The translations under genes and the position numbers were made by a program. Shown here piece after piece: positions 2,467 through 20,000 of a stretch of DNA of 20,000 nt. The notes beneath the pieces were generated by a model, which searched no databases, was not told the DNA's origin, and saw only the letters and a list, made by a program, of their open reading frames with translations. Source of the DNA: an uncultured virus (IMG/VR IMGVR_UViG_2660238084_000001) (lineage: Duplodnaviria; Heunggongvirae; Uroviricota; Caudoviricetes); IMG/VR virus record IMGVR_UViG_2660238084_000001, one strand, 5' to 3'. Position 1 is the first letter of the stretch. Each line of letters opens with the position of its first letter.

Positions 2467-3570
2467 ATGAGCCTTGCATTTGAAGGAGCGTCTCTCAAGC
2501 TTGCACGGGTGTTTTCCGCGATGGCTCTTGAAGAGGTTGGTGCTCTGGTTGGAAAAACCAGGCAATATGTTCACAAACTTGAAACAGGACAGAGTGCGCC
2601 GACTGAGACGCTAATTCTCAGCCTTGCTGAAGCACTCAATGTCGAGCCTGAGTTTTTCCAGTCCAGAGTCAATCGCCTTCATGAAGATCAGTTCCACTTC
2701 AGAAAGCTGCTTTCGACAACCAAAACCACCAAACAAGTAGCTATTGCTAGGGGCGAAGTCGTCCATTCGCTCATTGGCTATCTTGAGAAGCAGCTCAGGC
2801 TCCCGTCCGTCAACATACCTAGTATTCCAGACATCCATAGCCATGACTGCATTGAGCGGGCTGCCGAAAGCTGCCGCGAAGAATGGGATTTGGGGCTAGG
2901 GCCGGTGGACAATATGACGCGACTTGCAGAGAATCTGGGAGCCGTTGTTTTAAGCTTCGAAGGCCTCACAAAAGAAATTGATGCGTTGTCAGTAGCAGTC
3001 GAAAGGCCTTTCATTGTGAGAAACAACTCGAAAGAAAGTACTAGTCGGTATCGATTCGACATCGCGCATGAACTTGGCCATCTTGTTATGCATGAAGGCG
3101 TTGTAACTGGCGATCGAATCACTGAAAACCAAGCCAACCGATTTGCTAGCGCTTTTTTGTTGCCAAGAAGTATGATGATGAAGTTTTTCCCACGCCCAAA
3201 CGGGACAAGACTTGATTGGAAAGGCATTCGGGAGTTTAAGGGAAACTGGAAAGTCAGCAAGGGCGCAATCTTGTATAGGGCTCGTCAGCTTGAAATAATC
3301 ACTGACGCCCAATACAAAACTGGCGTCATTACATTAAAGAAGCATGAAGGAACACGAGAGAAGGATGACTATCTAATCCCCGAGGAGCCGCCAGAGGTGT
3401 TACTCAAATCTCTAGCTTTGCTCGCCTCTAAGAAAGGACTTTGTGAAGAACAACTCGCTAGGGCGCTTAATGTGAAGCCAGCTTTCCTCAGAGAGCTTCT
3501 GGGCCCATCGACCTTAGCCCCTCTGCAGTCAGTGGCTAAGCGAGCTGGGTACCTTCGAATCATTAAGTGA
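2467..3570 (+). CDS. XRE-family HTH fused to ImmA/IrrE (Peptidase_M78, COG2856) zinc metallopeptidase
   Basis: N-terminal HTH (LKLARVF...EEVGALVGKTRQYVHKLETG); RFDIAHELGH carries HExxH; ENQANRFASAFLLP; WKVSKGAILYRARQL. Confidence 0.92.
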   Translation: MSLAFEGASLKLARVFSAMALEEVGALVGKTRQYVHKLETGQSAPTETLILSLAEALNVEPEFFQSRVNRLHEDQFHFRKLLSTTKTTKQVAIARGEVVHSLIGYLEKQLRLPSVNIPSIPDIHSHDCIERAAESCREEWDLGLGPVDNMTRLAENLGAVVLSFEGLTKEIDALSVAVERPFIVRNNSKESTSRYRFDIAHELGHLVMHEGVVTGDRITENQANRFASAFLLPRSMMMKFFPRPNGTRLDWKGIREFKGNWKVSKGAILYRARQLEIITDAQYKTGVITLKKHEGTREKDDYLIPEEPPEVLLKSLALLASKKGLCEEQLARALNVKPAFLRELLGPSTLAPLQSVAKRAGYLRIIK

Positions 3571-3577
3571 AACACTT

Positions 3578-3603
3578 AGCCCGGCCCTGCGCCGGGCTTT
3601 CTT
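3578..3603 (+). terminator. Rho-independent terminator
   Basis: AGCCCGGC-cctgc-GCCGGGCT followed by TTCTT, just after the stop at 3570. Confidence 0.8.
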
Positions 3604-3663
3604 CAAGAAAGCTTTGCTCACGCCGATAGCCTTGTACTGCATCTCGCAGTGCAAGGAGGCTCT

Positions 3664-3795
3664 ATGAAAAAGATCGCTATCGCTGGGCTCATCGCACTAC
3701 TTTCATTCGCTTCAGTCTCTGCCTCAGCATGCCCCAAGGGCACGCATCCAACTGGCGGTACTGGCTCTCACCACAAAGGTGGGACCTGTAAGTAA
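3664..3795 (+). CDS. 43-aa secreted Cys/His/Gly-rich peptide (below the ORF-track cutoff)
   Basis: Strong SD AAGGAGG; MKKIAIAGLIALLSFASVSASA-CPKGTHPTGGTGSHHKGGTCK, a Sec signal peptide with an ASA cleavage motif; followed immediately by a terminator. Confidence 0.85.
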   Translation: MKKIAIAGLIALLSFASVSASACPKGTHPTGGTGSHHKGGTCK

Positions 3796-3799
3796 CAGG

Positions 3800-3824
3800 A
3801 GCCCGGCCCAGCGCCGGGCTTTTT
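3800..3824 (+). terminator. Rho-independent terminator, near-identical copy of 3578-3600
   Basis: AGCCCGGC-ccagc-GCCGGGCT-TTTT, between the peptide gene and the convergent DUF1652-like gene. Confidence 0.85.
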
Positions 3825-3828
3825 CGTT

Positions 3829-4101
3829 CTACCCCTTGTGCACCCTCTCCTGCCGATCAGCTGCTAGACGCCTGAGCCTCATCTCCCCTTTCACCTCAAG
3901 TACGAGCCCGACGATGTCCCTGATCGTCACCAGTGCCGTGGTATCGATGCCTGCGACTGTGTACGCCTCCATCTCGGTGCTCGTATCGAATACCTGAATC
4001 GTCATTGAGGCGTCTGACGCGATCACGCACACACACTTCATTGGCAAAAATGCTGCCTCTATGCAAGGACTCAGGTCCATTGGGGAATTCATTCGGTCCA
4101 T
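3829..4101 (-). CDS. DUF1652-like small protein; start uncertain
   Basis: IEAAFLPMKCVC..ASDASMTIQVFD...V.GID...LVTIRDIVGLVLEVKGEM resembles the Pseudomonas DUF1652 family as I recall it. Confidence 0.65.
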   Translation of the reverse strand: MDRMNSPMDLSPCIEAAFLPMKCVCVIASDASMTIQVFDTSTEMEAYTVAGIDTTALVTIRDIVGLVLEVKGEMRLRRLAADRQERVHKG

Positions 4102-4241
4102 CCTGGTTGCAAGCCAGGAGAATTCCTAGGACCTACGTTCCGCGGAGTGTAGCCGTGATATCGAATTGCGCTGGCGCTTTGCCTAAACAGTGACAATTGG
4201 CCCTGCCATCCAGCACCCGACACGCTGTTCTGCTCCAACCC

Positions 4242-4267
4242 AAGCCCGCCATTGAGTGGGTTTTTTT
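4242..4267 (+). terminator. Rho-independent terminator insulating pL
   Basis: AAGCCCGC-cattga-GTGGGTTT plus a T-run, directly upstream of the operators. Confidence 0.75.
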
Positions 4268-4285
4268 ATGAGCATAAGAAAATAA

Positions 4286-4327
4286 ATCACATTTCGTGTT
4301 GACCAAATAAACACAATACGTGATAGT
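4286..4327 (+). promoter_or_regulatory. pL-type promoter with two repressor operators (OL)
   Basis: TTGACC (4299-4304), 17 bp, GATAGT (4322-4327), comparable to lambda pL TTGACA-17-GATACT. Operators ATCAC-atttc-GTGTT (4286-4300) and AACAC-aatac-GTGAT (4310-4324) are 24 bp apart and overlap the -35 and -10 elements. Confidence 0.85.
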
Positions 4328-4358
4328 TAGCTCATCGCAGCGATCAACCGTAGCGACC

Positions 4359-4370
4359 CGCTCTTTAACA
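4359..4370 (+). promoter_or_regulatory. boxA antitermination element (nutL-like)
   Basis: CGCTCTTTAACA matches the boxA consensus, about 25 nt after the predicted pL start. Confidence 0.85.
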
Positions 4371-4384
4371 TCGCCAAAGACAAC

Positions 4385-4825
4385 CCCTGACGCCAGATGG
4401 CCGTTGAGTTCAGGGAACAGCACGAAACACAGTCTGCTACCGCGCACGATTACCCGGCGCGAAAGGTTTGCTGGAAACACAGAAACAAAAACGGAAAGCA
4501 TCACTGAAATACGCAATGAATTAGCGCCCCGAGCTTCGGCGATGAGGGGTGCCGGACCTCATGCACCCTGCCCACCTAACCGGGCAAACGAGCTGCAGCG
4601 TGCATGTTGTATAGGACCTGTGATCCAAGGCGAATAGATACAGATGCTGATTGACGCCCTGGGGAGGAAGCTCACCGCCAACCACTGAAAAAGACCGGCC
4701 AGCCCTGCAATCAACAGCGGGCAACTGGCCAACACCGTTGACGCAGCAAGCCGCGACCGACGCCAGTAGCGGGTCGCGGTGGACACCATCACTGAAGCAC
4801 CTGGCTTGCCGGGTGCTTTGGGATG
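4385..4825 (+). ncRNA. Structured 5' leader of the pL transcript
   Basis: Successive stems at 4385-4415, 4524-4552 (cUUCGg loop), 4560-4606, 4697-4730, 4751-4779 and 4787-4825. No credible CDS before 4846. Confidence 0.55.
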
Positions 4826-4845
4826 ACAACCACCGAGTAGACGTA

Positions 4846-5247
4846 ATGGATACCACCATCGTATGCGGGGCATGGAGAGGCCACCTCGGCCGTGGTCTTG
4901 CGCCGCGAGAGTTGCAGTTTTTGTTGTCAGCCGCCCAGGGCTGCACAGCCAAGGAAATCGCCCGCACATTCGGCATTGCGCCGGGCACGGTCGTTAAGCG
5001 GCTGTCGGTCGCCATGTACAAGCTCGGCGTGAATCGCCAGACAGCGATGATCGCCGAGGCCATGCGCCGCCAGATCATTTCCCCGCTCTGCCTCATGTTC
5101 ATGTCGGTCATCGTGCTGCACGCGATGCTGGACGACGAGTCGATGAGGCGAGACAGAAAGATCCCTGAGTCACGCCGGGGCGGTTACGAACTCAAGATCA
5201 GCCGCAAGGGCTCGGAAAAGCTCCGGCCAGTCGCGGCGATCTGCTGA
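4846..5247 (+). CDS. LuxR-type C-terminal HTH transcriptional regulator
   Basis: LAPRELQFLLSAAQGCTAKEIARTFGIAPGTVVKRLSVAMYKLGVNRQ is a GerE/LuxR HTH. ATG 4846 follows hairpin 4787-4825. No ligand-binding domain. Confidence 0.88.
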   Translation: MDTTIVCGAWRGHLGRGLAPRELQFLLSAAQGCTAKEIARTFGIAPGTVVKRLSVAMYKLGVNRQTAMIAEAMRRQIISPLCLMFMSVIVLHAMLDDESMRRDRKIPESRRGGYELKISRKGSEKLRPVAAIC

Positions 5248-5274
5248 CCACCACCAACCACCGGAGCAGAAGCG

Positions 5275-5472
5275 ATGATCATCATCGAAGACGGTTTCAC
5301 TAACGGCGCACAGGTAAGCATGCAGATGCACAAAGAGGCGGGTGAGCTATTTGTTTTTTATTGCCCTGCTGGCCAAGGCTGCAAAGTTAGCAAGTGGCCG
5401 CTGGATAGCTATCACATGCCAATCGCGATGGCTCATTACGAACAGTGCTGCGAGATGGAAAGGGCTGCGTGA
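5275..5472 (+). CDS. Hypothetical phage protein (65 aa)
   Basis: GGAG SD upstream; fills the space between the LuxR gene and the next hairpin. Confidence 0.7.
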   Translation: MIIIEDGFTNGAQVSMQMHKEAGELFVFYCPAGQGCKVSKWPLDSYHMPIAMAHYEQCCEMERAA

Positions 5473-5473
5473 A

Positions 5474-5525
5474 GATTTCACTGGCTGGCCTTGGCAACAG
5501 GGCTAGACGGGAAATCAACCGAGGG
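5474..5525 (+). repeat. Intergenic bulged-A hairpin plus SD, copy R1
   Basis: GATTTC-A-CTG-G-CTGGCCTTG-GCAA-CAGGGCTAG-A-CGG-GAAATC then AACCGAGGG. Confidence 0.85.
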
Positions 5526-5533
5526 AACAGAAG

Positions 5534-5725
5534 ATGACCACTGAACAGAGAGCGCCCTACCCGCGCTCAGCCGACAACGCGGACAAGATGAACCTGCCGG
5601 AAGGTATGACCTGCGGCGAATGCGTGCACTGCCGACGTTGCACGATGATGTTCGGCCACATACCGGAGGACGAGGCGTGTGACTGGAGCCCGTCGCGCTT
5701 CACGCCGGTGAAGGTGGTCGCCTGA
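5534..5725 (+). CDS. Small Cys-rich hypothetical protein
   Basis: CGECVHCRRC...C motif; GAGGG SD; bounded by hairpins R1 and R2. Confidence 0.75.
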   Translation: MTTEQRAPYPRSADNADKMNLPEGMTCGECVHCRRCTMMFGHIPEDEACDWSPSRFTPVKVVA

Positions 5726-5726
5726 C

Positions 5727-5775
5727 GATTTACTGATGCCGCTTCTATGAGGCGGCATTGGAAATCAACCGAGGG
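5727..5775 (+). repeat. Intergenic bulged-A hairpin plus SD, copy R2
   Basis: GATTT-A-CTGATGCCGCTTC-TAT-GAGGCGGCATTGG-AAATC then AACCGAGGG. Confidence 0.85.
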
Positions 5776-5782
5776 CAACACC

Positions 5783-6163
5783 ATGTTCAAACTCTTCGCG
5801 GGGCTCTTCCGCCGTAAGGTCCCAGCAATACCAGCGCAACCGCCGTGCGACGCAGCAGCAAGAACGCCACCCACCAAAACAGCAAGAACAGCGCCCAGTG
5901 CGCCACCCGCTTCTCCCGCGCCTATCCGGCGCGGAAGTTCACCCAGGCTGACAACAGCGACCGAGCGACGCACCACTGACGATGCAATCAGCTCACCTCT
6001 GCATCCGCTGAACCCGCTCAACTCTACGATTTACAGCCACAGCGATACGCCGGCGCGCTCTCATTGCAGCAGCCACAGCAGCAGCGACAGTTACAGCAGT
6101 TCAAGCGACAGCTCGAGTTGTTCATCGAGCGACAGCAGCTCATACAGCTCCAGCAGCGACTGA
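5783..6163 (+). CDS. Hypothetical Pro/Ala-rich protein with Ser-rich C-terminal tail
   Basis: ATG 5783 after GAGGG; MFKLFAGLFRRK...SSSDSYSSSSDSSSCSSSD. Confidence 0.7.
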   Translation: MFKLFAGLFRRKVPAIPAQPPCDAAARTPPTKTARTAPSAPPASPAPIRRGSSPRLTTATERRTTDDAISSPLHPLNPLNSTIYSHSDTPARSHCSSHSSSDSYSSSSDSSSCSSSDSSSYSSSSD

Positions 6164-6183
6164 GCAACCAGCGTCAGGTTGAC

Positions 6184-6234
6184 GATTTCACTGGCTGGCC
6201 TTGGCACCAGGGCCAGACGGGAATTCAACCGGAG
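6184..6234 (+). repeat. Intergenic bulged-A hairpin plus SD, copy R3
   Basis: Differs from R1 at 3 of about 48 nt; followed by AACCGGAG. Confidence 0.85.
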
Positions 6235-6242
6235 AACACGAA

Positions 6243-6488
6243 ATGATTGAACTAGGCAAGAAGGCCCGCGACAAGATCAGCGGATTCGAAGGCGTAATCA
6301 CCGGACGTGCGCAGTACCTCACGGGATGTGATCAATACGTGCTGTCGCCGGCTGCCAAGAATGGGGAAATGCAGAAATCAGAGTGGTTTGATGAAGGCCG
6401 TCTTGAAGTGACGGGCGACGGCGTAAGTGCCGAGTCAGTTGCAGGGCCACGGCCAGGGGGGCCACAGCGAGACGCCCCTGCTACCTGA
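6243..6488 (+). CDS. Hypothetical phage protein
   Basis: GGAG SD; MIELGKKARDKISGFEGVITGRAQYLTGCDQY...WFDEGRL, a small phage protein pattern I recognise. Confidence 0.8.
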   Translation: MIELGKKARDKISGFEGVITGRAQYLTGCDQYVLSPAAKNGEMQKSEWFDEGRLEVTGDGVSAESVAGPRPGGPQRDAPAT

Positions 6489-6502
6489 CTAATCATGACT
6501 CA

Positions 6503-6920
6503 CGTCAGCTTGACGAAAACTGCCCGAACACCTGGAACGCTTGAACGCTGACCAGGCCGCATCGGAGATTGATCGGAGCGTGCCCAAGCGGGCTGCAGCG
6601 CTAGGATCGCAAAGCCCCGGAAAAGTCCTGAGCCGGATCTGCCGGCCAATACCAGAAACGCGGCGGGAACCAAGCAGGGGTTGCGCCCTGGTGTTCCGAT
6701 CAATCTCCGATGCGGATGAGTACACACCGCAACCGAACCAATAAACGCGAGTAGTGGAGACGCAGTAGGTGGGCACGAGCAACGTGTGTCCCTGCCGAGC
6801 CTATGAACCACGAAGAGCGATGAGGTGGCGTACCGCCAAGCTACTGGGCTGACAGCCGGAAAGACGGCAAGGCGCTAGCGGATGAGTACAAGCCGTTCAG
6901 TCGGCCCCCTGTGTAGCGCC
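6503..6920 (+). ncRNA. Non-coding structured RNA region
   Basis: Perfect 21-bp inverted repeat 6557-6577/6695-6715 enclosing several small hairpins; further stems to 6920; no credible CDS. Confidence 0.6.
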
Positions 6921-6941
6921 ATCCCCTCCCCTAATTCAAAC

Positions 6942-7078
6942 CGACCGCATCGGCAGGTGCCAAGCCAGTCTCACGGCTGGGGTTGGTCACCCGCGTATGG
7001 GATCTGGCCAATGCGGTCAAGGAGCCTGATATGCACCACTCAATCAGCCAGCGTCGGCAATTATCGAAGGTCTGCGCC
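6942..7078 (+). repeat. Degenerate copy of 7434-7571 (RNA stem, SD and frameshifted gene start)
   Basis: Aligns end to end with 7434-7571. A 1-nt deletion (cgtcggca vs cgtcgtgca) frameshifts the duplicated MHHSISQR start. Confidence 0.9.
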
Positions 7079-7082
7079 TAAT

Positions 7083-7310
7083 TTAGGCATTTCCTAAATG
7101 CCCATCTACGAACTCCCAAACATCGTAATGCGCGTTTGAATGGAACGACCATCTGATCCAGTTCGCACCGCAACATCTGCATGTGTGCGGGAGGCCATTG
7201 CGCCCCTCGTGACGTAGTGTCATGCCGGACCGTTCCATGCGGTCCGTATCAGATGTCTGCACTCCTGAAGAGTTTGCAGCCAAAAGCTGCTGACATTGTT
7301 CGCAGGGCAT
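7083..7310 (-). CDS. Small zinc-ribbon-like protein (antisense moron)
   Basis: MPCEQCQQ...HTCRCCGANW has two CxxC pairs; lies between the two direct repeats. Confidence 0.65.
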   Translation of the reverse strand: MPCEQCQQLLAANSSGVQTSDTDRMERSGMTLRHEGRNGLPHTCRCCGANWIRWSFHSNAHYDVWEFVDGHLGNA

Positions 7311-7433
7311 ACGTGTTGTCCAGTGCAGATACGAAGTGATGAAACAAGGATACATCTCACAAAAGCTTAAGCCCAGACCTCAAGTCCAGAGCCCCCTCGG
7401 GCACGTGACTTCACCTCCACCGTCAAACCACAA

Positions 7434-7571
7434 CGACCGCATTGGCAGATGCCAGGCCAGTCTCACGGCTGGGTTTGGTCACCCGCGCCTGGTATCTGAC
7501 CAATGCGGTCAAGGAGCCTCATATGCACCACTCAATCAGCCAGCGTCGTGCAATCCTCGAAGGCCTGCGCC
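7434..7571 (+). repeat. Intact copy of the duplicated element (multibranch RNA stem, AAGGAG, gene start)
   Basis: GACCGCATTGG pairs with CCAATGCGGTC and CAGATGCCAGGC with GCCTGGTATCTG, enclosing two short hairpins; ends immediately before SD AAGGAG. Confidence 0.9.
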
Positions 7572-7861
7572 AGCGCTGCACCCTTTCCACTGCCGAGTTT
7601 TACGACAAAGTCGGCCGTCGCAACCCGGCGGCCCTGCCGCGCTTCACCGTGATTCCGAACGGCAACAACGAGTTCGGCATCGTTGAGCGTTCCACCGGCC
7701 TTGTGCGGGCGGTTCATAAAGGCCACGGCGTAGCGTGCAAAGCGGCATCGCACCTTGAAGCCACGCCAATGCGCCAGCCGTCTTTCGCGTCGTACATGCT
7801 GCGCTGGACTGCCGCCATCGCCACCGGCCTGGCGCTGTTCGCGCTGTACGGTGTCAGCTGA
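7523..7861 (+). CDS. Hypothetical phage protein with C-terminal hydrophobic helix
   Basis: AAGGAG SD, ATG 7523; C-terminus WTAAIATGLALFALYGVS; TGATG coupling to the next gene. Confidence 0.8.
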   Translation: MHHSISQRRAILEGLRQRCTLSTAEFYDKVGRRNPAALPRFTVIPNGNNEFGIVERSTGLVRAVHKGHGVACKAASHLEATPMRQPSFASYMLRWTAAIATGLALFALYGVS

Positions 7862-12718: not shown

Positions 12719-14887
12719 ATGTCCGCACAACGGAAGAAACATCCCTTCGATTTTAAAACCCAGTACGGCCTTGGCTTCAATCCGCAAGACGATGAGATCG
12801 TTGTGGACTTCTTCTGCGGTGGTGGCGGCGCCGGTACTGGGCTGGAAATGGGCCTCGGGCGCACCGTCAGCGTGGCCAAGAATCACAGCGCTGCGGCGAT
12901 CAGCATGCACACAGTCAACCACCCGGGCGCGAAGCACTTCACCACCGACGTGTTCGACGGCGATCCAGATACCGAATGCGGTGGAAAAGCGGTGGGCTGG
13001 TTCCACATGAGCCCGGATTGTACCCATCACAGCCAAGCTGCTGGCGGGCAACCGCGCAAGCGCGAGATCCGCAACCTTTCTTGGATCGGCTTGAAGTGGG
13101 CGGGCAAGAAGAAACCCCGCGTCATCAGCCTGGAGAACGTGAAGCAGATCCTGCAATGGGGGCCTCTTGTTGCTAAACGAGACCCGGCCACAGGCAGGGC
13201 CATCAAGCTGGTCACAGTTCTGGGCACCAATGGCAAAGCGAAAATACAGCACACTGTTGCAGCACCTGGCGAGGTTGTTCCGGTTGATCAGCAATTTCTG
13301 ATGCCAGACCCTACGCGGCGTGGCCAGACGTGGGCCGTGTTCGTCGCCGAGCTGGAGCGCCTGGGCTATGCCGTCGAGTGGCGTGTGATCCGAGCGTGCG
13401 ACTTCGGCGCGCCCACCAGCCGGGAACGCCTGTTTATGATTGCCCGCTGCGACGGGCAACCGATCGTGTGGCCAGAGCCGACCCATGCCAAGCGTCCCGT
13501 TAAAGGCCAGAAGCCGTGGAGGACCGCCGCCGAGTGCATCGACTTTAACGACCTCGGCAGAAGCATCTTCGGACGCAAGAAAGACCTGGCTCCCGCCACC
13601 CTGCGCCGGGTCGCCAAGGGCATGAAGAAGTTCGTCATCGACAACCCCGCCCCGTTCATCGTCCCGATTGCGAACTGGTCAGGTGAGACGGTGCAGTCGG
13701 CCGCCGAGCCGTTGCGCACTGTGACGTCATATCCAAAGGGCGGCGCTTTCTCGGTCGTCAGCCCAGTCATCGCGCCAGCGACTCACCAAGGCAGCGATCG
13801 CATCAACGATCCGCTGGAGCCGTTGCCGACGATCACCTGCGCCAACCGTGGCGAGTTCACGCTGATCAGCCCCACCCTGATCCAGTCTGGCTACGGCGAG
13901 CGCCAAGGCCAGCTACCTCGCGTGCCGGGAATCGACCAACCGCTGGGAACGGTCGTTGCCGGAGGAGTGAAGCACGCGCTGACAAGTTCGATTCTCGTGG
14001 GTGCTGGCGGGCCAGTGTATGCAGGCAAGCCGGTGGCGGCAGATCAGCCCGTTGGGACATTGATGACGCGGAATCACCGAGCGGTGTCCACTGCATTCAT
14101 GGCTCAGATGAACGGTGGCTTCAACACCACCGACGCCAAAGGCGTTGACGAGCCTATGACGACGATCACCAACACCGGCAGCCAGCAGCAACTCGTGACC
14201 GCGACACTGATCACCAATACCACCGGCCACGGACCGACAGACCTGGCCAATCCAGTGCCCACAATGACGACGGGGCAGCACCACGCACTGGTAGCCGCAA
14301 ACCTGGTGCACCTGCGCGGTAACTGTGATGCGCGGGACTTGAATGACCCGCTGCATACGATCAGCGCCGGCGGCCAGCACCACGGAATGGTAACTGCATT
14401 CATGGAGCGGCAGTTCGGTGCCAGCGTCGGCCAGCCTCTGGACGAACCCGCCCCAACGGTCACAGCAGGTGGCGGCGGTAAAAGCTCAGTCGTATCGCTC
14501 AGGCTCTCCCCGGAGCATGAGGAAGGTGCGCTGCGCGTTGCCGCGTTCCTGATCAGTTACTACGGGACCGAAAACGTAAGCGGCGCGGGCGAACCGGCAC
14601 CAACGATCACGACCAAAGATCGCCTGGCGCTGGTCACCGTCATGGTCAAGGGCACGCCCTACGTGATCGTCGACATCTGCCTACGAATGCTCAAACCGGC
14701 CGAGTTGTACAAGGCCCAGGGATTTCCCGCCGACTACGTCATCACCCACGGTGCCGACGGCAAGCCCTTCAACAAAACCCAGCAGGTGCACATGTGCGGC
14801 AACAGCGTGAGCCCGCCGCCGATGGCTGCACTTGCTCGAGCAAACGACCCGTGGCGCATATCAACTCAACACCAGGTGGCAGCATGA
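12719..14887 (+). CDS. DNA (cytosine-5) methyltransferase with an expanded repeat-containing variable region
   Basis: Motif I DFFCGGGG, motif IV SPDCTHHS, VI ENV, VIII RERLF, IX RML...ELYKAQGFP, X GNSVSPP. Confidence 0.95.
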   Translation: MSAQRKKHPFDFKTQYGLGFNPQDDEIVVDFFCGGGGAGTGLEMGLGRTVSVAKNHSAAAISMHTVNHPGAKHFTTDVFDGDPDTECGGKAVGWFHMSPDCTHHSQAAGGQPRKREIRNLSWIGLKWAGKKKPRVISLENVKQILQWGPLVAKRDPATGRAIKLVTVLGTNGKAKIQHTVAAPGEVVPVDQQFLMPDPTRRGQTWAVFVAELERLGYAVEWRVIRACDFGAPTSRERLFMIARCDGQPIVWPEPTHAKRPVKGQKPWRTAAECIDFNDLGRSIFGRKKDLAPATLRRVAKGMKKFVIDNPAPFIVPIANWSGETVQSAAEPLRTVTSYPKGGAFSVVSPVIAPATHQGSDRINDPLEPLPTITCANRGEFTLISPTLIQSGYGERQGQLPRVPGIDQPLGTVVAGGVKHALTSSILVGAGGPVYAGKPVAADQPVGTLMTRNHRAVSTAFMAQMNGGFNTTDAKGVDEPMTTITNTGSQQQLVTATLITNTTGHGPTDLANPVPTMTTGQHHALVAANLVHLRGNCDARDLNDPLHTISAGGQHHGMVTAFMERQFGASVGQPLDEPAPTVTAGGGGKSSVVSLRLSPEHEEGALRVAAFLISYYGTENVSGAGEPAPTITTKDRLALVTVMVKGTPYVIVDICLRMLKPAELYKAQGFPADYVITHGADGKPFNKTQQVHMCGNSVSPPPMAALARANDPWRISTQHQVAA

Positions 14888-18013: not shown

Positions 18014-18511
18014 ATGTCAGCAATTCTTCAACGCTTCCACGAAATCGCAAATGACGCACTGTTGCGGATCGGCGAGCACTGCCTGCCCGGCGCAAAGATA
18101 GCACTGGTCATCTACACCCCAGGCAAGCCTGAGGAAGACATCGTGCTCAAGGATAACGGCTTGAACGACGATGAGGTCGTCAGCACTCTGCGTCGCCGAG
18201 GGCTGAGCATCGACGGCGATAACGCTTATAAGCGCGATCTTCTGGACGCTGCAGTCGGCGCGATGGGGTTTGGTTTTCAAGGCACAAACGCACCACCTAC
18301 CGGCCACTGGGGCCAGCGCTTCTATGACCTTGGTCGCGCAGAGGCTGAGCTACGTGAAGAGTTGATCGCAGCACTCAAACTCAACCGCGAAAACCTGCGG
18401 GCATGCCAAGCGACCATCCACCTTTGCGGCGGCTTCGACCCCGCCTACGTCAACAATGCGCAGGCGGCCATGAAGGTGGCTGATGCAGTGCTGAGCAAAT
18501 CGCCTCAATAA
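18014..18511 (+). CDS. Hypothetical phage protein
   Basis: GGAG SD after hairpin GCCTGCCG-gtgat-CGGCGGGC; ATG 18014. Confidence 0.8.
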   Translation: MSAILQRFHEIANDALLRIGEHCLPGAKIALVIYTPGKPEEDIVLKDNGLNDDEVVSTLRRRGLSIDGDNAYKRDLLDAAVGAMGFGFQGTNAPPTGHWGQRFYDLGRAEAELREELIAALKLNRENLRACQATIHLCGGFDPAYVNNAQAAMKVADAVLSKSPQ

Positions 18512-18549: not shown

Positions 18550-18951
18550 ATGGCAAACAAATCTGGCGCCCAGGTAGCGCAAATCCTGCCCCGGTTCATC
18601 CGGGCAGGTGATGCCTACGGCTATCTGGGCATGTGTCGTGACGAATTCAACAAGACCGTGCGCCCAAACGTTCGGGAATTTCCCATTGGAAAACAAGGCG
18701 TCGGCTTTGATCGACTGGAGCTGGATGCGTGGGCGGATGCCTACGTCGAGAGCAAGGCGATTGAAAAGGCAGCCAATCAGGATAACAATCGGCCCCGCAG
18801 CGAGCGCCGAGGAGACACGGTATGGCGCGAAAGACAATCACCGGCCTCTACGAGAAAGGTGGCATCTGGCAAATTGACAAAGTCTACAGGGGGGAGCGAA
18901 TTCGAGAGAGCACTGGCACTGGTAACCGGCAAGAAGCCGAGCAGTACCTGA
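18550..18951 (+). CDS. xis: Excisionase / recombination directionality factor-like protein
   Basis: PRFIRAGDAYGYLGMCRDEFNKTVRP...IGKQGVGFDRLELDAWAD is a winged-helix Xis/AlpA-like pattern; lies directly upstream of and overlaps int. Confidence 0.7.
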   Translation: MANKSGAQVAQILPRFIRAGDAYGYLGMCRDEFNKTVRPNVREFPIGKQGVGFDRLELDAWADAYVESKAIEKAANQDNNRPRSERRGDTVWRERQSPASTRKVASGKLTKSTGGSEFERALALVTGKKPSST

Positions 18952-20000
18952 TTCACATGCTCGAGCGGCTTCGCCAAGAGCGGGTGTACGGTGTTCGCCG
19001 AACTCGCACTTGGGAAGAGGCAGCAACCCGTTTTTTGATTGAGTACAAGGATCAGCCATCAATCAAGCTATCAGCGCATCACCTGACTCACCTCCATCCA
19101 TACCTAAAGGACCTGCCGTTGACACACATCGACGATCAGGCTCTGGAGGAGTTTGTCGCGGATCGACTGAGCGGGATGGTTTTGCCATCAGGCAAGCAAC
19201 TGAAGCCGGTGGCACCGCGCACCGTGAATATGTCGATTGAGCGTGTCATCAGGATCCTTTCATTGTGTGCTCGCAAGTGGAGGGATGAGGAGCGCAGGCC
19301 GTGGCTCGACTCAGTGCCAATGCTGACAAAGCTCGACCTGAAGAAAAAGGTAAGGCTGCCCTACCCCATGACCTGGGAAGAGCAGTCGATCCTGTTCGGG
19401 GAATTGCCCACGCACTTGCAAAAAATGGCGTTGTTCAAAGTGAACACGGGCACCCGGGAGCAAGAGGTTTGCAAATTGAGGTGGGATTGGGAGATTCAGG
19501 TTCCGGAGCTTGGGACCAGCGTATTTCTGATCCCTTCCGATTTTGGGGGGCGGACCGAGCGATCCGGAGTGAAGAACGGCGACGAGCGCCTGGTGGTGCT
19601 CAACTCGGTGGCCAGGTCAGTGATCAACCAGCAGCGAGGACTGAGCAAGGAATGGGTGTTCCCTTACAGCGGCACGGCAATGCACCGCATGAACGATTCG
19701 GCATGGAAAAAGGCGCGGTTGAGGGCGGCGAAACTCTGGCAGGAGAGAAACCTTCGCCCTGCTCAACCTGGATATGCATCAATCAGGGTTCACGATCTCA
19801 AACACACGTTCGGCCGACGTCTGCGTGCAGCTGGCGTAACCGAGGAAGATCGCAAGGCACTGCTTGGGCATAAGAACGGCAGCATCACAAGCCATTACTC
19901 AGGCGCTGAGCTTGGCAAACTGATTGAGGCTGCAAATATGGTATCAACAACTGACTCGCGAGGGCCGGTATTGACGATATTGAAGAGGAGGATCGGATGA
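18822..20000 (+). CDS. int: Tyrosine recombinase / phage integrase (complete; TGA at 19998-20000)
   Basis: GAGGAG SD; N-terminal arm-binding-like RIRESTGT; catalytic residues in NTGTR..E, VKNG, HDLKHTF, LLGH and ITSHY. Confidence 0.95.
   Translation: MARKTITGLYEKGGIWQIDKVYRGERIRESTGTGNRQEAEQYLIHMLERLRQERVYGVRRTRTWEEAATRFLIEYKDQPSIKLSAHHLTHLHPYLKDLPLTHIDDQALEEFVADRLSGMVLPSGKQLKPVAPRTVNMSIERVIRILSLCARKWRDEERRPWLDSVPMLTKLDLKKKVRLPYPMTWEEQSILFGELPTHLQKMALFKVNTGTREQEVCKLRWDWEIQVPELGTSVFLIPSDFGGRTERSGVKNGDERLVVLNSVARSVINQQRGLSKEWVFPYSGTAMHRMNDSAWKKARLRAAKLWQERNLRPAQPGYASIRVHDLKHTFGRRLRAAGVTEEDRKALLGHKNGSITSHYSGAELGKLIEAANMVSTTDSRGPVLTILKRRIG

What the first reader, a model, noticed from the sequence alone, without database searches (positions are those of the whole stretch)
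4787..6234. Four covarying bulged-A hairpins, each fused to the ribosome-binding site of a gene cassette
Seen: elements at 4787-4825, 5474-5516, 5727-5766 and 6184-6226 share one architecture: a 4-6-bp basal stem, a single bulged A, CUG paired with (C/U)GG, a long upper stem, then AACC plus an SD and a start codon. Upper-stem sequence differs between 4787, R1/R3 and R2 while pairing is kept. R1 and R3 differ at three positions, one in the loop and one a G-U/G-C swap. None has a U-tract, so they are not terminators. Inference: a repeated cis-RNA module, either RNase III-type processing sites that cut the transcript into monocistronic messages (as in T7 early RNA) or binding sites for a phage protein, which also provides homology for shuffling the small genes in between. 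I cannot match it to a named family.
Basis: partly seen in the sequence, partly recalled or inferred. Interest (0 to 1): 0.78.

Follow-up and report, generated by a model that had tools for sequence, protein, structure and literature searches.

The report
Hairpin-plus-RBS module heading phage early genes
A conserved RNA hairpin with one bulged A sits just upstream of the ribosome-binding site of many unrelated small early genes in Pseudomonas temperate phages; it has no entry in Rfam and marks the points where such genes are swapped between phages.

Summary
Four sense-strand hairpins (4787-4825, 5474-5516, 5727-5766, 6184-6226) fold as described. Each ends 16-20 nt before a start codon.

The window is the early-left operon of a Pseudomonas lambdoid prophage. 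A covariance model found 140 copies in 81 of 83 sources searched. On 128 distinct copies:
- 94.8% of pair cells are paired, against 28-55% for slid controls.
- 15 of 19 pairs show compensatory changes.
- The bulged A is present in 121 of 128, and two U.G wobbles are nearly invariant.
- The sense strand folds better in 126 of 128.

Copies lie only at the head of this operon. The first usually lies 164-272 nt after a boxA-like motif. Together they head 74 unrelated protein clusters. Hairpin type assorts independently of the flanking genes, and homology breakpoints are enriched about fivefold at the elements.

Matches occur in 58 of 151 sampled genomes of the genus and in none of 150 others of the order. 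Rfam gave nothing.

Best reading: a portable cis-RNA leader, most likely an RNase III-type processing and insulating hairpin as in T7 early RNA, which also serves as a mosaic junction. The function is untested.

The parts
4299..4327 (+). Promoter-like site (TTGACC, 17 nt, GATAGT) of the early-left operon. It lies directly after a terminator-like hairpin at 4242-4263.
   Evidence: the only + strand promoter-like site in 3500-7600. Related phages have the same layout after their cI genes.
4359..4369 (+). boxA-like motif (CGCTCTTTAAC) in the leader, 419 nt upstream of the first element.
   Evidence: Read. GCTCTTTA[AG] lies upstream of the first element in 56 of 81 loci and never downstream of the last; 47 of those 56 are at 164-272 nt. 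The name boxA is from recall.
4787..4825 (+). Element E0: bulged-A hairpin with basal stem CAUC/GAUG and upper arm of type AAGCACC. The covariance-model match is 4779-4838. It is the first copy, at the end of the untranslated leader.
   Evidence: 49.9 bits. The same type occurs in other proviruses (L026, L085) and is mostly the first copy of an array (6 of 7).
4826..4845 (+). Single-stranded tail of E0 (ACAACC, SD GAG) up to the start codon.
4846..5247 (+). Gene 1, 133 aa, LuxR/sigma region 4-type HTH protein.
   Evidence: GerE 9.1e-8; phrog_3282 2.9e-54
5275..5472 (+). Gene 2, 65 aa, unknown function. It has no hairpin here, but 4 homologues elsewhere are headed by an R1-type hairpin.
   Evidence: (phrog_27409)
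5474..5516 (+). Element R1: bulged-A hairpin with upper arm GCUGGCC and GCAA tetraloop. Model match 5468-5527. It begins 1 nt after the stop codon of gene 2.
   Evidence: 78.3 bits
5534..5725 (+). Gene 3, 63 aa, unknown function.
   Evidence: phrog_10154
5727..5766 (+). Element R2: bulged-A hairpin with a 5-bp basal stem, upper arm AUGCCGC and UAU loop. Model match 5721-5777. It begins 1 nt after the stop codon of gene 3.
   Evidence: 49.0 bits. It is 98% identical to the copy in phages MR13 and MR15.
5783..6163 (+). Gene 4, 126 aa, with a Ser-rich C-terminus and no family match.
   Evidence: A homologue in another provirus is headed by a different hairpin type.
6184..6226 (+). Element R3: same type as R1, with 3 differences inside the hairpin. 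Model match 6178-6237.
   Evidence: 73.2 bits
6243..6488 (+). Gene 5, 81 aa, unknown function. It is the last element-headed gene of the row.
   Evidence: phrog_16275

Best explanation
The four elements belong to a large, unnamed family of sense-strand RNA hairpins. The family forms the 5' untranslated head of accessory genes at the start of the early-left (PL-like) operon of Pseudomonas lambdoid phages and prophages.

Shown here:
- The RNA structure is under selection.
- Copies are confined to this one operon segment and keep a fixed spacing to the SD and start codon.
- They head many unrelated small genes.
- They coincide with mosaic junctions.

Inferred: the hairpin acts in cis on the polycistronic early transcript as an RNase III-type processing and insulating site, as in T7 early RNA and the lambda N leader.
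- It has about two helical turns and a distal U.G/U-A step under the loop.
- It has a weak or non-canonical pair 7 bp lower, and a bulged A that could restrict or position cleavage.
- Cutting there would detach each small message from its upstream neighbour or from the long leader, leaving a short open leader (...GGAAAUCAACC-GAGG...AUG).
- Even uncut, the hairpin would lock up its own bases so that the SD stays open whatever lies upstream.

Because the 45-60 conserved bases are shared among phages, they also serve as crossover points at which genes are exchanged.

Rough odds: RNA structure selected 0.95; cis role in expression of the downstream gene 0.7; RNase III as the acting enzyme 0.35-0.4.
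For: Structure (128 distinct copies):
- 94.8% of 2365 pair cells are paired, against 27.8-54.9% when partners are slid.
- 15 of 19 pairs have changes on both sides, and 0 of 500 shuffles reach any measure. The alignment was fitted to the model, which favours it.
- The bulged A is present in 121 of 128.
- U15.G44 is kept in 118 of 128 and U24.G35 in 125 of 128.
- GNRA tetraloops occur in 59 of 128.

Strand:
- The sense hairpin is more stable in 126 of 128, by 8.3 kcal/mol on average. There are 313 G.U cells against 18 A.C cells.
- All copies in a locus share one strand; 0 of 81 loci are mixed.

Place:
- The gap from stem end to start codon is 15-17 nt in 81 of 139 contexts and 9-37 nt in 137 of 139. 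ATG is the start in 132 of 137.
- The distance to the upstream stop codon ranges from -11 to over 100 nt.
- Copies are found only in one cluster per phage in 5 whole records and number 1-4 in 5 host genomes.
- The first copy follows a boxA-like motif in 56 of 81 loci.

RNase III likeness:
- The stem has 19 bp.
- A U.G plus U-A step lies 2-3 bp under the loop.
- Column 17/42 is A-U (56) or G.A (62), and G-C or C-G in only 7 of 128.
- PMC1540722 (abstract, Results section, figure legends read) reports the following for E. coli RNase III. Typical substrates have two helical turns. There is a distal box with canonical UA/UG and a stringently required U.G. At least 11 bp lie between the cut and the tetraloop. 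GC or CG next to the scissile bond suppresses cleavage. Bulges limit cleavage to one strand.

Open SD: predicted unpaired probability at -18..+2 is 0.52 for 101 element-headed starts against 0.42 for 418 other starts.

Junctions:
- HSP ends fall inside elements in 9.6-11% of cases against a 2% null.
- RNA-library contigs of two organisms match the window only over 4780-5247 and 5472-5773, so homology stops at element borders.
- One identical 43-nt stem-loop occurs in 24 contexts, before 15 protein clusters and after 20 upstream groups.
Against: - No RNA ends were seen. The two raw-read runs had 0 reads on the stretch, and contigs cannot show ends. Processing is therefore pure inference.
- In my inferred register, column 19/40 would be proximal-box position 2. 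E. coli RNase III disfavours GC/CG there, yet it is G-C in 57 of 128 copies. The register is my own reading of the paper's numbering, because its figures are not held.
- The U.G/U-A step lies one base pair nearer the loop than the distal box of the minimal substrate.
- The most conserved part (bulged A, CUG:YGG, basal stem sequence) is conserved in sequence rather than by covariation. That would suit a sequence-specific binding protein at least as well.
- Gene 2 of the window, and one form of other families, do without the hairpin.
- The accessibility control set comes from a crude ORF heuristic and includes false starts.
- Mosaic junctions in phages tend to lie between genes anyway, and the shared element itself pulls HSP ends to its borders. 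The enrichment therefore does not prove crossover within it.
Confidence: 0.45

Rival explanations
1. The hairpin is a passive insulator and stabiliser with no endonuclease involved. It sequesters its own bases so that the SD tail stays single-stranded in any genetic context. It also shields the message from RNase E or 3' exonucleases after unrelated cuts.
For: - Fixed spacing to the SD and start codon, with a free distance to the upstream stop.
- Higher predicted openness of element-headed starts, 0.52 against 0.42.
- The hairpin heads 74 unrelated protein clusters.
- The hairpins are stable, mean -27.2 kcal/mol.
Against: - A plain clamp does not need a bulged A in 121 of 128 copies, two fixed U.G wobbles, or an invariant CUG:YGG step. 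Any stable stem would do.
- The accessibility control is weak.
Confidence: 0.2
2. The hairpin is an operator for a sequence-specific RNA-binding protein, encoded by the phage or specific to the host genus. That protein represses or activates translation of all early accessory genes together by gripping the bulged-A/CUG:YGG region next to the SD, in the way coat-protein or RegA-type translational operators work.
For: - The basal half is conserved in sequence (U11-A47 and C14-G45 in 128 of 128; bulged A in 121 of 128) while the distal half is free to covary.
- The site abuts the SD.
- Matches are restricted to one genus: 58 of 151 genomes against 0 of 150 others of the order.
Against: - No candidate protein was sought or found.
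- The phages carrying the element have diverse gene sets.
- Basal stems do covary in divergent copies, for example CAUC/GAUG, UUUUC/GAAAA and GUUUC/GAAAC.
Confidence: 0.15
3. The element acts at the DNA level as a recombination site or miniature mobile element. A folded single strand would be recognised by a recombinase or HUH-type nuclease and would move genes in and out, in the manner of integron attC sites.
For: - Arrays run in one orientation behind one promoter, between small orphan genes.
- There is an extrahelical base and a variable upper stem.
- Identical copies sit in unrelated flanks.
- Breakpoints lie at the elements.
Against: - The constant 15-17 nt spacing to start codons and the SD in the tail point to translation.
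- GNRA loops occur in 59 of 128 copies, and 313 G.U cells on the sense strand become A.C mismatches on the other strand.
- No RYYYAAC/GTTRRRY core sites are read in the alignment (the core-site motif is recalled).
- The only recombinase in the window is an ordinary phage integrase at the far end of the window.
- Hairpin type assorts independently of both neighbours, so no fixed cassette exists.
Confidence: 0.05
4. The hairpin is a transcription signal. It would be a pause or weak termination hairpin before each gene, read through by a boxA-dependent antitermination complex, or itself part of an antitermination site.
For: - A boxA-like motif lies upstream of the first copy in 56 of 81 loci.
- The hairpins are stable.
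Against: - There is no U-tract, and no terminator-like call at any copy.
- The elements repeat before each gene rather than occurring once per operon.
- The loop is not conserved, unlike boxB-type sites (recalled).
- The spacing is tied to the start codon, not to any transcript feature.
Confidence: 0.05

Closest known systems
RNase III processing sites of phage T7 early RNA (R0.3 to R1.3), studied as R1.1/uR1.1
   Same: - Repeated hairpins of about two helical turns lie before the first gene and between the genes of a host-transcribed early operon (this T7 layout is recalled).
- A GNRA loop is common, and uR1.1 has GCAA.
- A U.G/U-A step lies near the loop, like the distal box.
- A weak pair lies where GC would suppress cutting.
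- A bulge could limit cleavage to one strand. (PMC1540722: abstract, Results section and figure legends read.)
   Different: - No sequence relationship was shown, and cleavage is untested.
- There is a single bulged A instead of an internal loop.
- G-C occurs in 57 of 128 copies at the position I infer to be proximal-box position 2.
- The host is Pseudomonas and the phages are temperate siphoviruses.
- Upper stems are diversified by covariation.
RNase III-sensitive hairpin in the lambda N leader, between nutL and the N ribosome-binding site (recalled; no paper read)
   Same: The order is the same: PL-type promoter, boxA-containing leader, large hairpin, SD of the first early-left gene.
   Different: Here the hairpin is repeated before up to four successive genes. 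The first gene is not N-like but any of many small genes.
PeSLs (promoter-early stem-loops) of T4-type phages (PMC2839356, abstract and outline read)
   Same: Short conserved cassettes lie between small orphan genes in hyperplastic early regions. Recombination between them shuffles the genes.
   Different: PeSLs are a sigma70-like promoter plus a terminator stem-loop. Here the scan finds neither a promoter-like nor a terminator-like site at the elements, and the element is tied to the SD and start codon.
Start-associated sequences (SAS/ESAS) of Cluster K mycobacteriophages (PMC3203893, passages read)
   Same: A repeat in one orientation contains the SD a few bases before ATG starts of non-structural genes of different families. 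Half of these repeats carry an upstream inverted repeat with a variable spacer. Their function is unknown, and a role in translation initiation has been proposed.
   Different: The authors found that departures in the ESAS arms do not support RNA pairing, and they favoured a DNA-binding protein. Here pairing is strongly supported. The sequences, host phylum and phage group also differ.
Integron attC sites
   Same: Imperfect hairpins with an extrahelical base and a variable upper part separate promoterless small genes in a one-orientation array.
   Different: There are no attC core sites (motif recalled) and no integron integrase. Sense-strand RNA signatures are present, and the spacing is fixed to the downstream start rather than to the upstream gene end.

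Membership tests
Any Rfam 15 family | Match to a curated covariance model | tested here: not met
   0 matches at E <= 1 over the whole window, both strands.
Bacterial RNase III processing site (T7 early-RNA type) | Cleavage by RNase III in vivo or in vitro | not testable with these tools
   The raw-read RNA runs laid held 0 reads of the stretch, and contigs show no ends.
Bacterial RNase III processing site (T7 early-RNA type) | Double helix of about two turns, with at least 11 bp between the cut and the loop | tested here: met
   There are 19 model pairs plus one bulge. The requirement is taken from PMC1540722.
Bacterial RNase III processing site (T7 early-RNA type) | Distal-box and proximal-box base-pair rules of the E. 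coli enzyme | tested here: inconclusive
   In favour: U.G in 125 of 128 and U-A in 100 of 128 under the loop, and GC/CG in only 7 of 128 at column 17/42. Against: G-C in 57 of 128 at column 19/40. The register is inferred by me from the text of PMC1540722, and the Pseudomonas enzyme's rules are unknown to me.
Bacterial RNase III processing site (T7 early-RNA type) | Intercistronic place in a polycistronic early transcript | tested here: met
PeSL (T4-type phages) | Sigma70-like early promoter joined to a terminator stem-loop | tested here: not met
   no promoter-like or terminator-like site at any of the four elements, and no U-tract.
SAS/ESAS (Cluster K mycobacteriophages) | The 13-bp SAS consensus 3-7 bp before the start; ESAS arms that do not covary as RNA | tested here: not met
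   The tail here is AACC-GAGG, with the start 15-17 nt after the stem. The arms covary strongly. The family is defined in PMC3203893.
Integron attC | R''/R' core sites at the ends, and an integron integrase nearby | tested here: not met
   The ends read GAUUUC... and ...GAAAUCAACC in the alignment. The only recombinase in the window matches the general Phage_integrase family. The core-site consensus is recalled, and no integron-specific integrase model was run.
Intrinsic terminator | G+C-rich stem followed by a U-tract | tested here: not met
REP/REPIN-type dispersed host repeats | Many copies dispersed through the host chromosome | tested here: not met
   There are 1-4 copies per host genome, in tight clusters, and 1-8 in the genus sample.

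The most novel reading that the evidence does not exclude
The element is the recognition tag of a dedicated system. A specific factor, either an endonuclease or an RNA-binding protein of Pseudomonas or of these phages, reads the bulged-A/U.G motif. It thereby processes or gates, as one regulon, every gene plugged in behind such a tag.

The head of the early-left operon would then work as an integron-like bank of exchangeable immediate-early genes, probably host-takeover and anti-defence genes, whose slots are defined by an RNA structure rather than by a recombinase site. If so, the covariance model would be a direct finder for such genes across the genus.
Probability: 0.15. Interest if true: 0.85.

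Novelty: new variant of a known kind. Interest (0 to 1): 0.62.

Why it matters
- **A likely new RNA family.** It is well supported and abundant, with over 120 viral contigs and matches in 58 of 151 sampled species genomes of the genus. Rfam lacks it, and the phage genome papers I checked do not mention it.
- **A tool for gene discovery.** It tags the first genes expressed from the early-left promoter. They are small and hypervariable, and 65 of 74 cluster representatives have no Pfam family. This is the class where host-takeover and anti-defence genes are usually sought, so the model could serve as a finder for them.
- **A test case for mosaicism.** It shows how phage mosaicism can be organised around a functional RNA. 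The structure is kept while upper-stem sequences within one phage are diversified, as if to avoid deletions between direct repeats.
- **A possible engineering part.** If it proves to be a processing or insulating part, it would be a natural, portable expression adaptor for Pseudomonas engineering.

Tried and rejected
- **Rfam.** The scan at E <= 1 found nothing.
- **Earlier findings of this scan.** A look-up by sequence found nothing.
- **Literature.**
  - searched Pseudomonas, prophage, intergenic, stem-loop, early genes, conserved.
  - searched temperate phage, Pseudomonas, RNase III, intercistronic, hairpin, early operon.
  - searched the phage names.
  - None of the listed titles or abstracts described this element.
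  - The MD8 and PseuP_222/224 genome papers contain none of the words hairpin, stem-loop, intergenic or inverted repeat.
  - Subscription journals and supplementary files were not searched.
- **RNA-end evidence.** One sequencing-run search and one lay were made. Raw-read runs X21 and X24 gave 0 reads, which is no test. Contigs of X1 and X3 cover relatives of two cassettes only and cannot show ends or prove transcription.
- **Sigma54 or sigma70 promoter inside the hairpin.** This was considered by eye (a TGGCAC-like loop in R3) and dropped. The -12 element is missing, the loop varies, and the scan finds nothing.
- **SECIS-like reading of UGA plus hairpin.** Dropped, because the stop lies 0-3 nt before the stem in only 21 of 139 contexts. 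Reading through the gene 2 stop also ends after about 20 codons in another frame than gene 3.
- **CRISPR-repeat mimic (RNA anti-CRISPR).** Only a 7-8 nt resemblance to recalled Pseudomonas repeats was seen. The stem is far longer and every copy abuts an SD. This idea was not tested with a tool.
- **RsmA/CsrA, Hfq or Crc sites.** The GGA in the 3' basal arm is base-paired and its flanks do not fit the recalled consensus. A-rich ARN runs occur in R1 only. This idea was not tested with a tool.
- **Fifth copy at 18353-18393.** At 15.1 bits it is a 5-bp stem inside an ORF and was treated as chance.
- **Rows dropped.**
  - 3 of the 47 distinct pattern matches (L011, L041, L102) were left out of the seed alignment because they cannot form the stem by eye.
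  - L011 and L041 then gave no model hit.
  - Loci L087-L126 (300-nt flanks) and L028 (overlaps L027) were not searched with the model.
Full report
**What is in the window**

All relevant genes lie on the + strand and make up the immunity and early-left region of a lambdoid prophage.
- A cI-like S24 repressor lies at 8-580, followed by several small genes.
- An HTH plus M78-peptidase regulator lies at 2467-3570.
- Terminator-like hairpins lie at 3805-3820 and 4242-4263.
- One promoter-like site lies at 4299-4327.
- A long row of genes then runs to a methyltransferase (12719-14887) and an integrase (18822-20000).
- A boxA-like CGCTCTTTAAC motif lies at 4359-4369, followed by an untranslated leader up to 4845.

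The window shares all its sampled words with an IMG/VR provirus record, G001.

**The observation**

They show the stated architecture.

Each is followed by AACC, an SD and a start codon, at 4846, 5534, 5783 and 6243. R1 and R3 are 92% identical over 52 nt. A covariance model run without filters over the whole window finds these four and nothing else of weight. The second gene of the row (5275-5472) lacks a hairpin.

**The family**

- *First sign of relatives.* Blastn against phage records found the R1/R3 form at about 90-93% in phiPSA1, psageB2, psageK9, Medea1, Aurca01, MD8, zjk6 and D14E. It found the R2 form at 98% in MR13 and MR15, mostly in unannotated intergenic DNA. In phiPSA1, Medea1 and MR13 a single copy lies just before the first gene that follows a cI gene, a promoter, a boxA-like motif and a leader.
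It gave 127 matches and 47 distinct sequences, with obviously compensating upper stems.
- *Building the model.* I built a model from 44 of these 47 plus the four window copies. The other three cannot form the stem.
- *Model search.* I searched 83 sources with the model. It found 140 copies in 81 of them, always on one strand within a locus. There were 38 loci with one copy, 28 with two, 14 with three, and the window with four. Start-to-start spacing is 191-1221 nt.

**Structure**

On 128 distinct rows the measures are as follows.
- 94.8% of cells pair, against 27.8-54.9% when partners are slid.
- 15 of 19 pairs carry changes on both sides, and no shuffle of 500 reaches any measure. The alignment is fitted to the model, which favours it, but the margin is large.
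- U11-A47 and C14-G45 are invariant.
- The bulged A is present in 121 of 128.
- U15.G44 is kept in 118 of 128 and U24.G35 in 125 of 128.
- Loops are GNRA in 59 of 128 and otherwise varied.

The sense strand folds better than its complement in 126 of 128, by 8.3 kcal/mol on average. There are 313 G.U cells against 18 A.C cells. The element is therefore an RNA of the gene strand.

**Place**

- *Downstream.* The gap from stem end to start codon is 15-17 nt in 81 of 139 distinct contexts and 9-37 nt in 137 of 139. ATG is the start in 132 of 137.
- *Upstream.* The upstream stop codon lies anywhere from 11 nt inside the stem to more than 100 nt away. In 17 contexts there is no upstream ORF. The element therefore belongs to the downstream start, not to the upstream end.
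- *Leader.* GCTCTTTA[AG] lies upstream of the first copy in 56 of 81 loci, 47 of them at 164-272 nt, and never downstream of the last copy.
- *Whole phage records.* In five whole phage or provirus records the copies (4, 3, 1, 1, 1) lie only in this one cluster.
- *Host genomes.* Five host genomes have 1-4 copies each, and copies on one contig lie within about 700 nt of each other.
- *Taxonomic range.* In a sample drawn evenly from the genus of one host, 58 of 151 genomes have a match at E <= 1e-5; one of the 58, G106, is unpublished. In a sample of the order, only the centre genome does, 1 of 151. Of 80 pattern-matched loci in species genomes, 28 scored 45 bits or more. All 28 are titled Pseudomonas except one titled Pantoea sp. 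Thirteen non-Pseudomonas loci scored only 22-30 bits, which is what the pattern alone gives.

**The genes behind the elements**

- *Diversity.* The 137 downstream ORFs (median 87 aa, range 32-294) fall into 74 clusters, 49 of them singletons.
- *Family matches.* 65 of 74 representatives have no Pfam family at E <= 0.001. The rest are a mixed set: LuxR-type HTH, alginate lyase, a CsrA homologue, HTH_17, TerB, Arc and weak methyltransferase hits.
- *Type and gene assort independently.* 17 of 25 clusters with two or more members are headed by two or more hairpin types, and one type heads 32 clusters. One identical 43-nt stem-loop occurs in 24 contexts, before 15 clusters and after 20 different upstream sequences.
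- *Breakpoints.* In an all-against-all blastn of the loci, internal HSP ends fall inside elements in 9.6-11% of cases against 2% for random positions. Right-hand ends pile up at element positions 50-69, the SD tail. The shared element itself attracts HSP ends, and junctions between genes are common in phages, so this shows coincidence, not mechanism.
- *RNA-library contigs.* Contigs from RNA libraries of two organisms match the window only over 4780-5247 and 5472-5773, so their homology stops at element borders. The tool warns that presence in such a library does not prove transcription.
- *Types within one array.* Copies in one array are mostly of different types. Same-type pairs number 10 of 76 against 18.9 in label shuffles, and 28 of 5000 shuffles are as low. 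Ascertainment by a pattern that fits only some types is a caveat.

**Mechanism**

What is shown is a selected sense-strand RNA hairpin placed at a fixed distance before the SD of immediate-early accessory genes. What it does is inferred.

The closest working model is the RNase III site of phage early operons. The following points bear on it.
- *Published determinants.* The paper on the minimal T7 R1.1 substrate (PMC1540722; abstract, Results section and figure legends read) reports these points for E. coli RNase III:
  - Typical substrates have two helical turns.
  - At least 11 bp lie between the cut and the tetraloop.
  - The minimal substrate has a GCAA loop.
  - The distal box has canonical UA/UG, and the U.G is stringently required.
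  - GC or CG next to the scissile bond suppresses cleavage.
  - Bulges can limit cleavage to one strand, leaving a protective 3' hairpin.
- *What fits.* The element has 19 bp, often a GNRA loop, and a nearly invariant U.G plus U-A step under the loop. Seven base pairs lower, one position is A-U or G.A and is G-C or C-G in only 7 of 128.
- *Where a cut would fall.* By my inferred register, a cut there would fall at the CUG:YGG step beside the bulged A. It would leave a leader of roughly 23 nt that starts in the 3' basal arm.
- *What does not fit.* The position I infer to be proximal-box 2 is G-C in 57 of 128 copies. The U.G/U-A step is one pair nearer the loop than in the minimal substrate. The Pseudomonas enzyme's preferences are unknown to me.
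- *Openness of the SD.* Element-headed starts are predicted to be more open than other starts in the same loci, 0.52 against 0.42. The control is crude.

I therefore give the general cis-expression role about 0.7 and RNase III in particular about 0.35-0.4. A passive insulator, a protein operator, a DNA-level recombination site and a transcription signal remain as rivals.

**Comparison with known systems**

It works most like the T7 early RNase III sites and the lambda N-leader hairpin; both layouts are recalled.

In evolutionary behaviour it resembles two other systems:
- PeSLs of T4-type phages (PMC2839356, abstract read).
- SAS/ESAS repeats of Cluster K mycobacteriophages (PMC3203893, passages read).

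It is a member of neither:
- It has no promoter and no terminator.
- Unlike ESAS, its arms covary as RNA.
- It also lacks the features of attC sites, intrinsic terminators and dispersed REP elements.

No Rfam family matches. Three literature searches and two phage genome papers gave no description of it. Subscription journals and supplementary files were not covered.

**Verdict**

It opens onto a large, genus-restricted family of structured leaders that Rfam lacks and that my searches found no description of.

Noticed in passing
window 4359-4369; L001 ~3800, L002 ~3734: An rrn-type boxA-like motif (CGCTCTTTAAC) lies shortly after the early-left promoter. In three phages it directly follows a short hairpin. 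It lies upstream of the first element in 56 of 81 loci. This suggests boxA/Nus-dependent antitermination of the operon without an obvious N gene.
   Followed up: partly
window 6495-6745; L001 4636-4850; L002 4401-4615: A conserved non-coding block lies after the last element-headed gene. It has a long-range stem of about 25 bp (window about 6552-6576 with 6697-6721) that encloses a variable interior. A few pairs show compensatory changes among 3 sequences. It could be a structured RNA or a long dsRNA processing site. Rfam gave nothing.
   Followed up: partly
window 6920-7056 and 7412-7548: A 137-nt direct repeat, 86% identical. The second copy holds the leader and first codons of the gene starting near 7523. 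The first copy ends in a short truncated frame. It looks like a duplicated gene head.
   Followed up: no
window 4750-4779; L001 ~4010-4040: A separate 9-bp hairpin lies directly upstream of the first element. It is conserved between the window and phiPSA1, although the bulged-A hairpins that follow it are of different types.
   Followed up: no
window 5248-5274: Gene 2 has only the CAACC..GGAG tail without a hairpin, while 4 homologues in other proviruses are headed by an R1-type hairpin. The hairpin can therefore be lost.
   Followed up: partly
L060 2318-2494: One element-headed gene encodes a 59-aa CsrA/RsmA-family protein (Pfam CsrA, 4.6e-26). This would be a phage-borne global RNA-binding regulator.
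   Followed up: no
L002 about 4990-5060: Medea1 carries a stretch that looks like the 3' part of a tRNA (T-arm and CCA-like end), inserted in the conserved non-coding region (read). It was not checked with the tRNA finder.
   Followed up: no
window 5783-6163: Gene 4 ends in a serine-rich low-complexity tail and has no family match.
   Followed up: no
window 18353-18393: A weak model hit (15.1 bits, E 0.02) lies inside an ORF. It is a 5-bp stem followed by AACCG and is probably chance.
   Followed up: yes
arrays in L007-L086: Some hairpin types prefer a position in the array. AAGCACC is first in 6 of 7 cases and AUGCCGC in 18 of 23. AUGCACC comes later in 7 of 9 and AUGCCCA in 4 of 4.
   Followed up: partly
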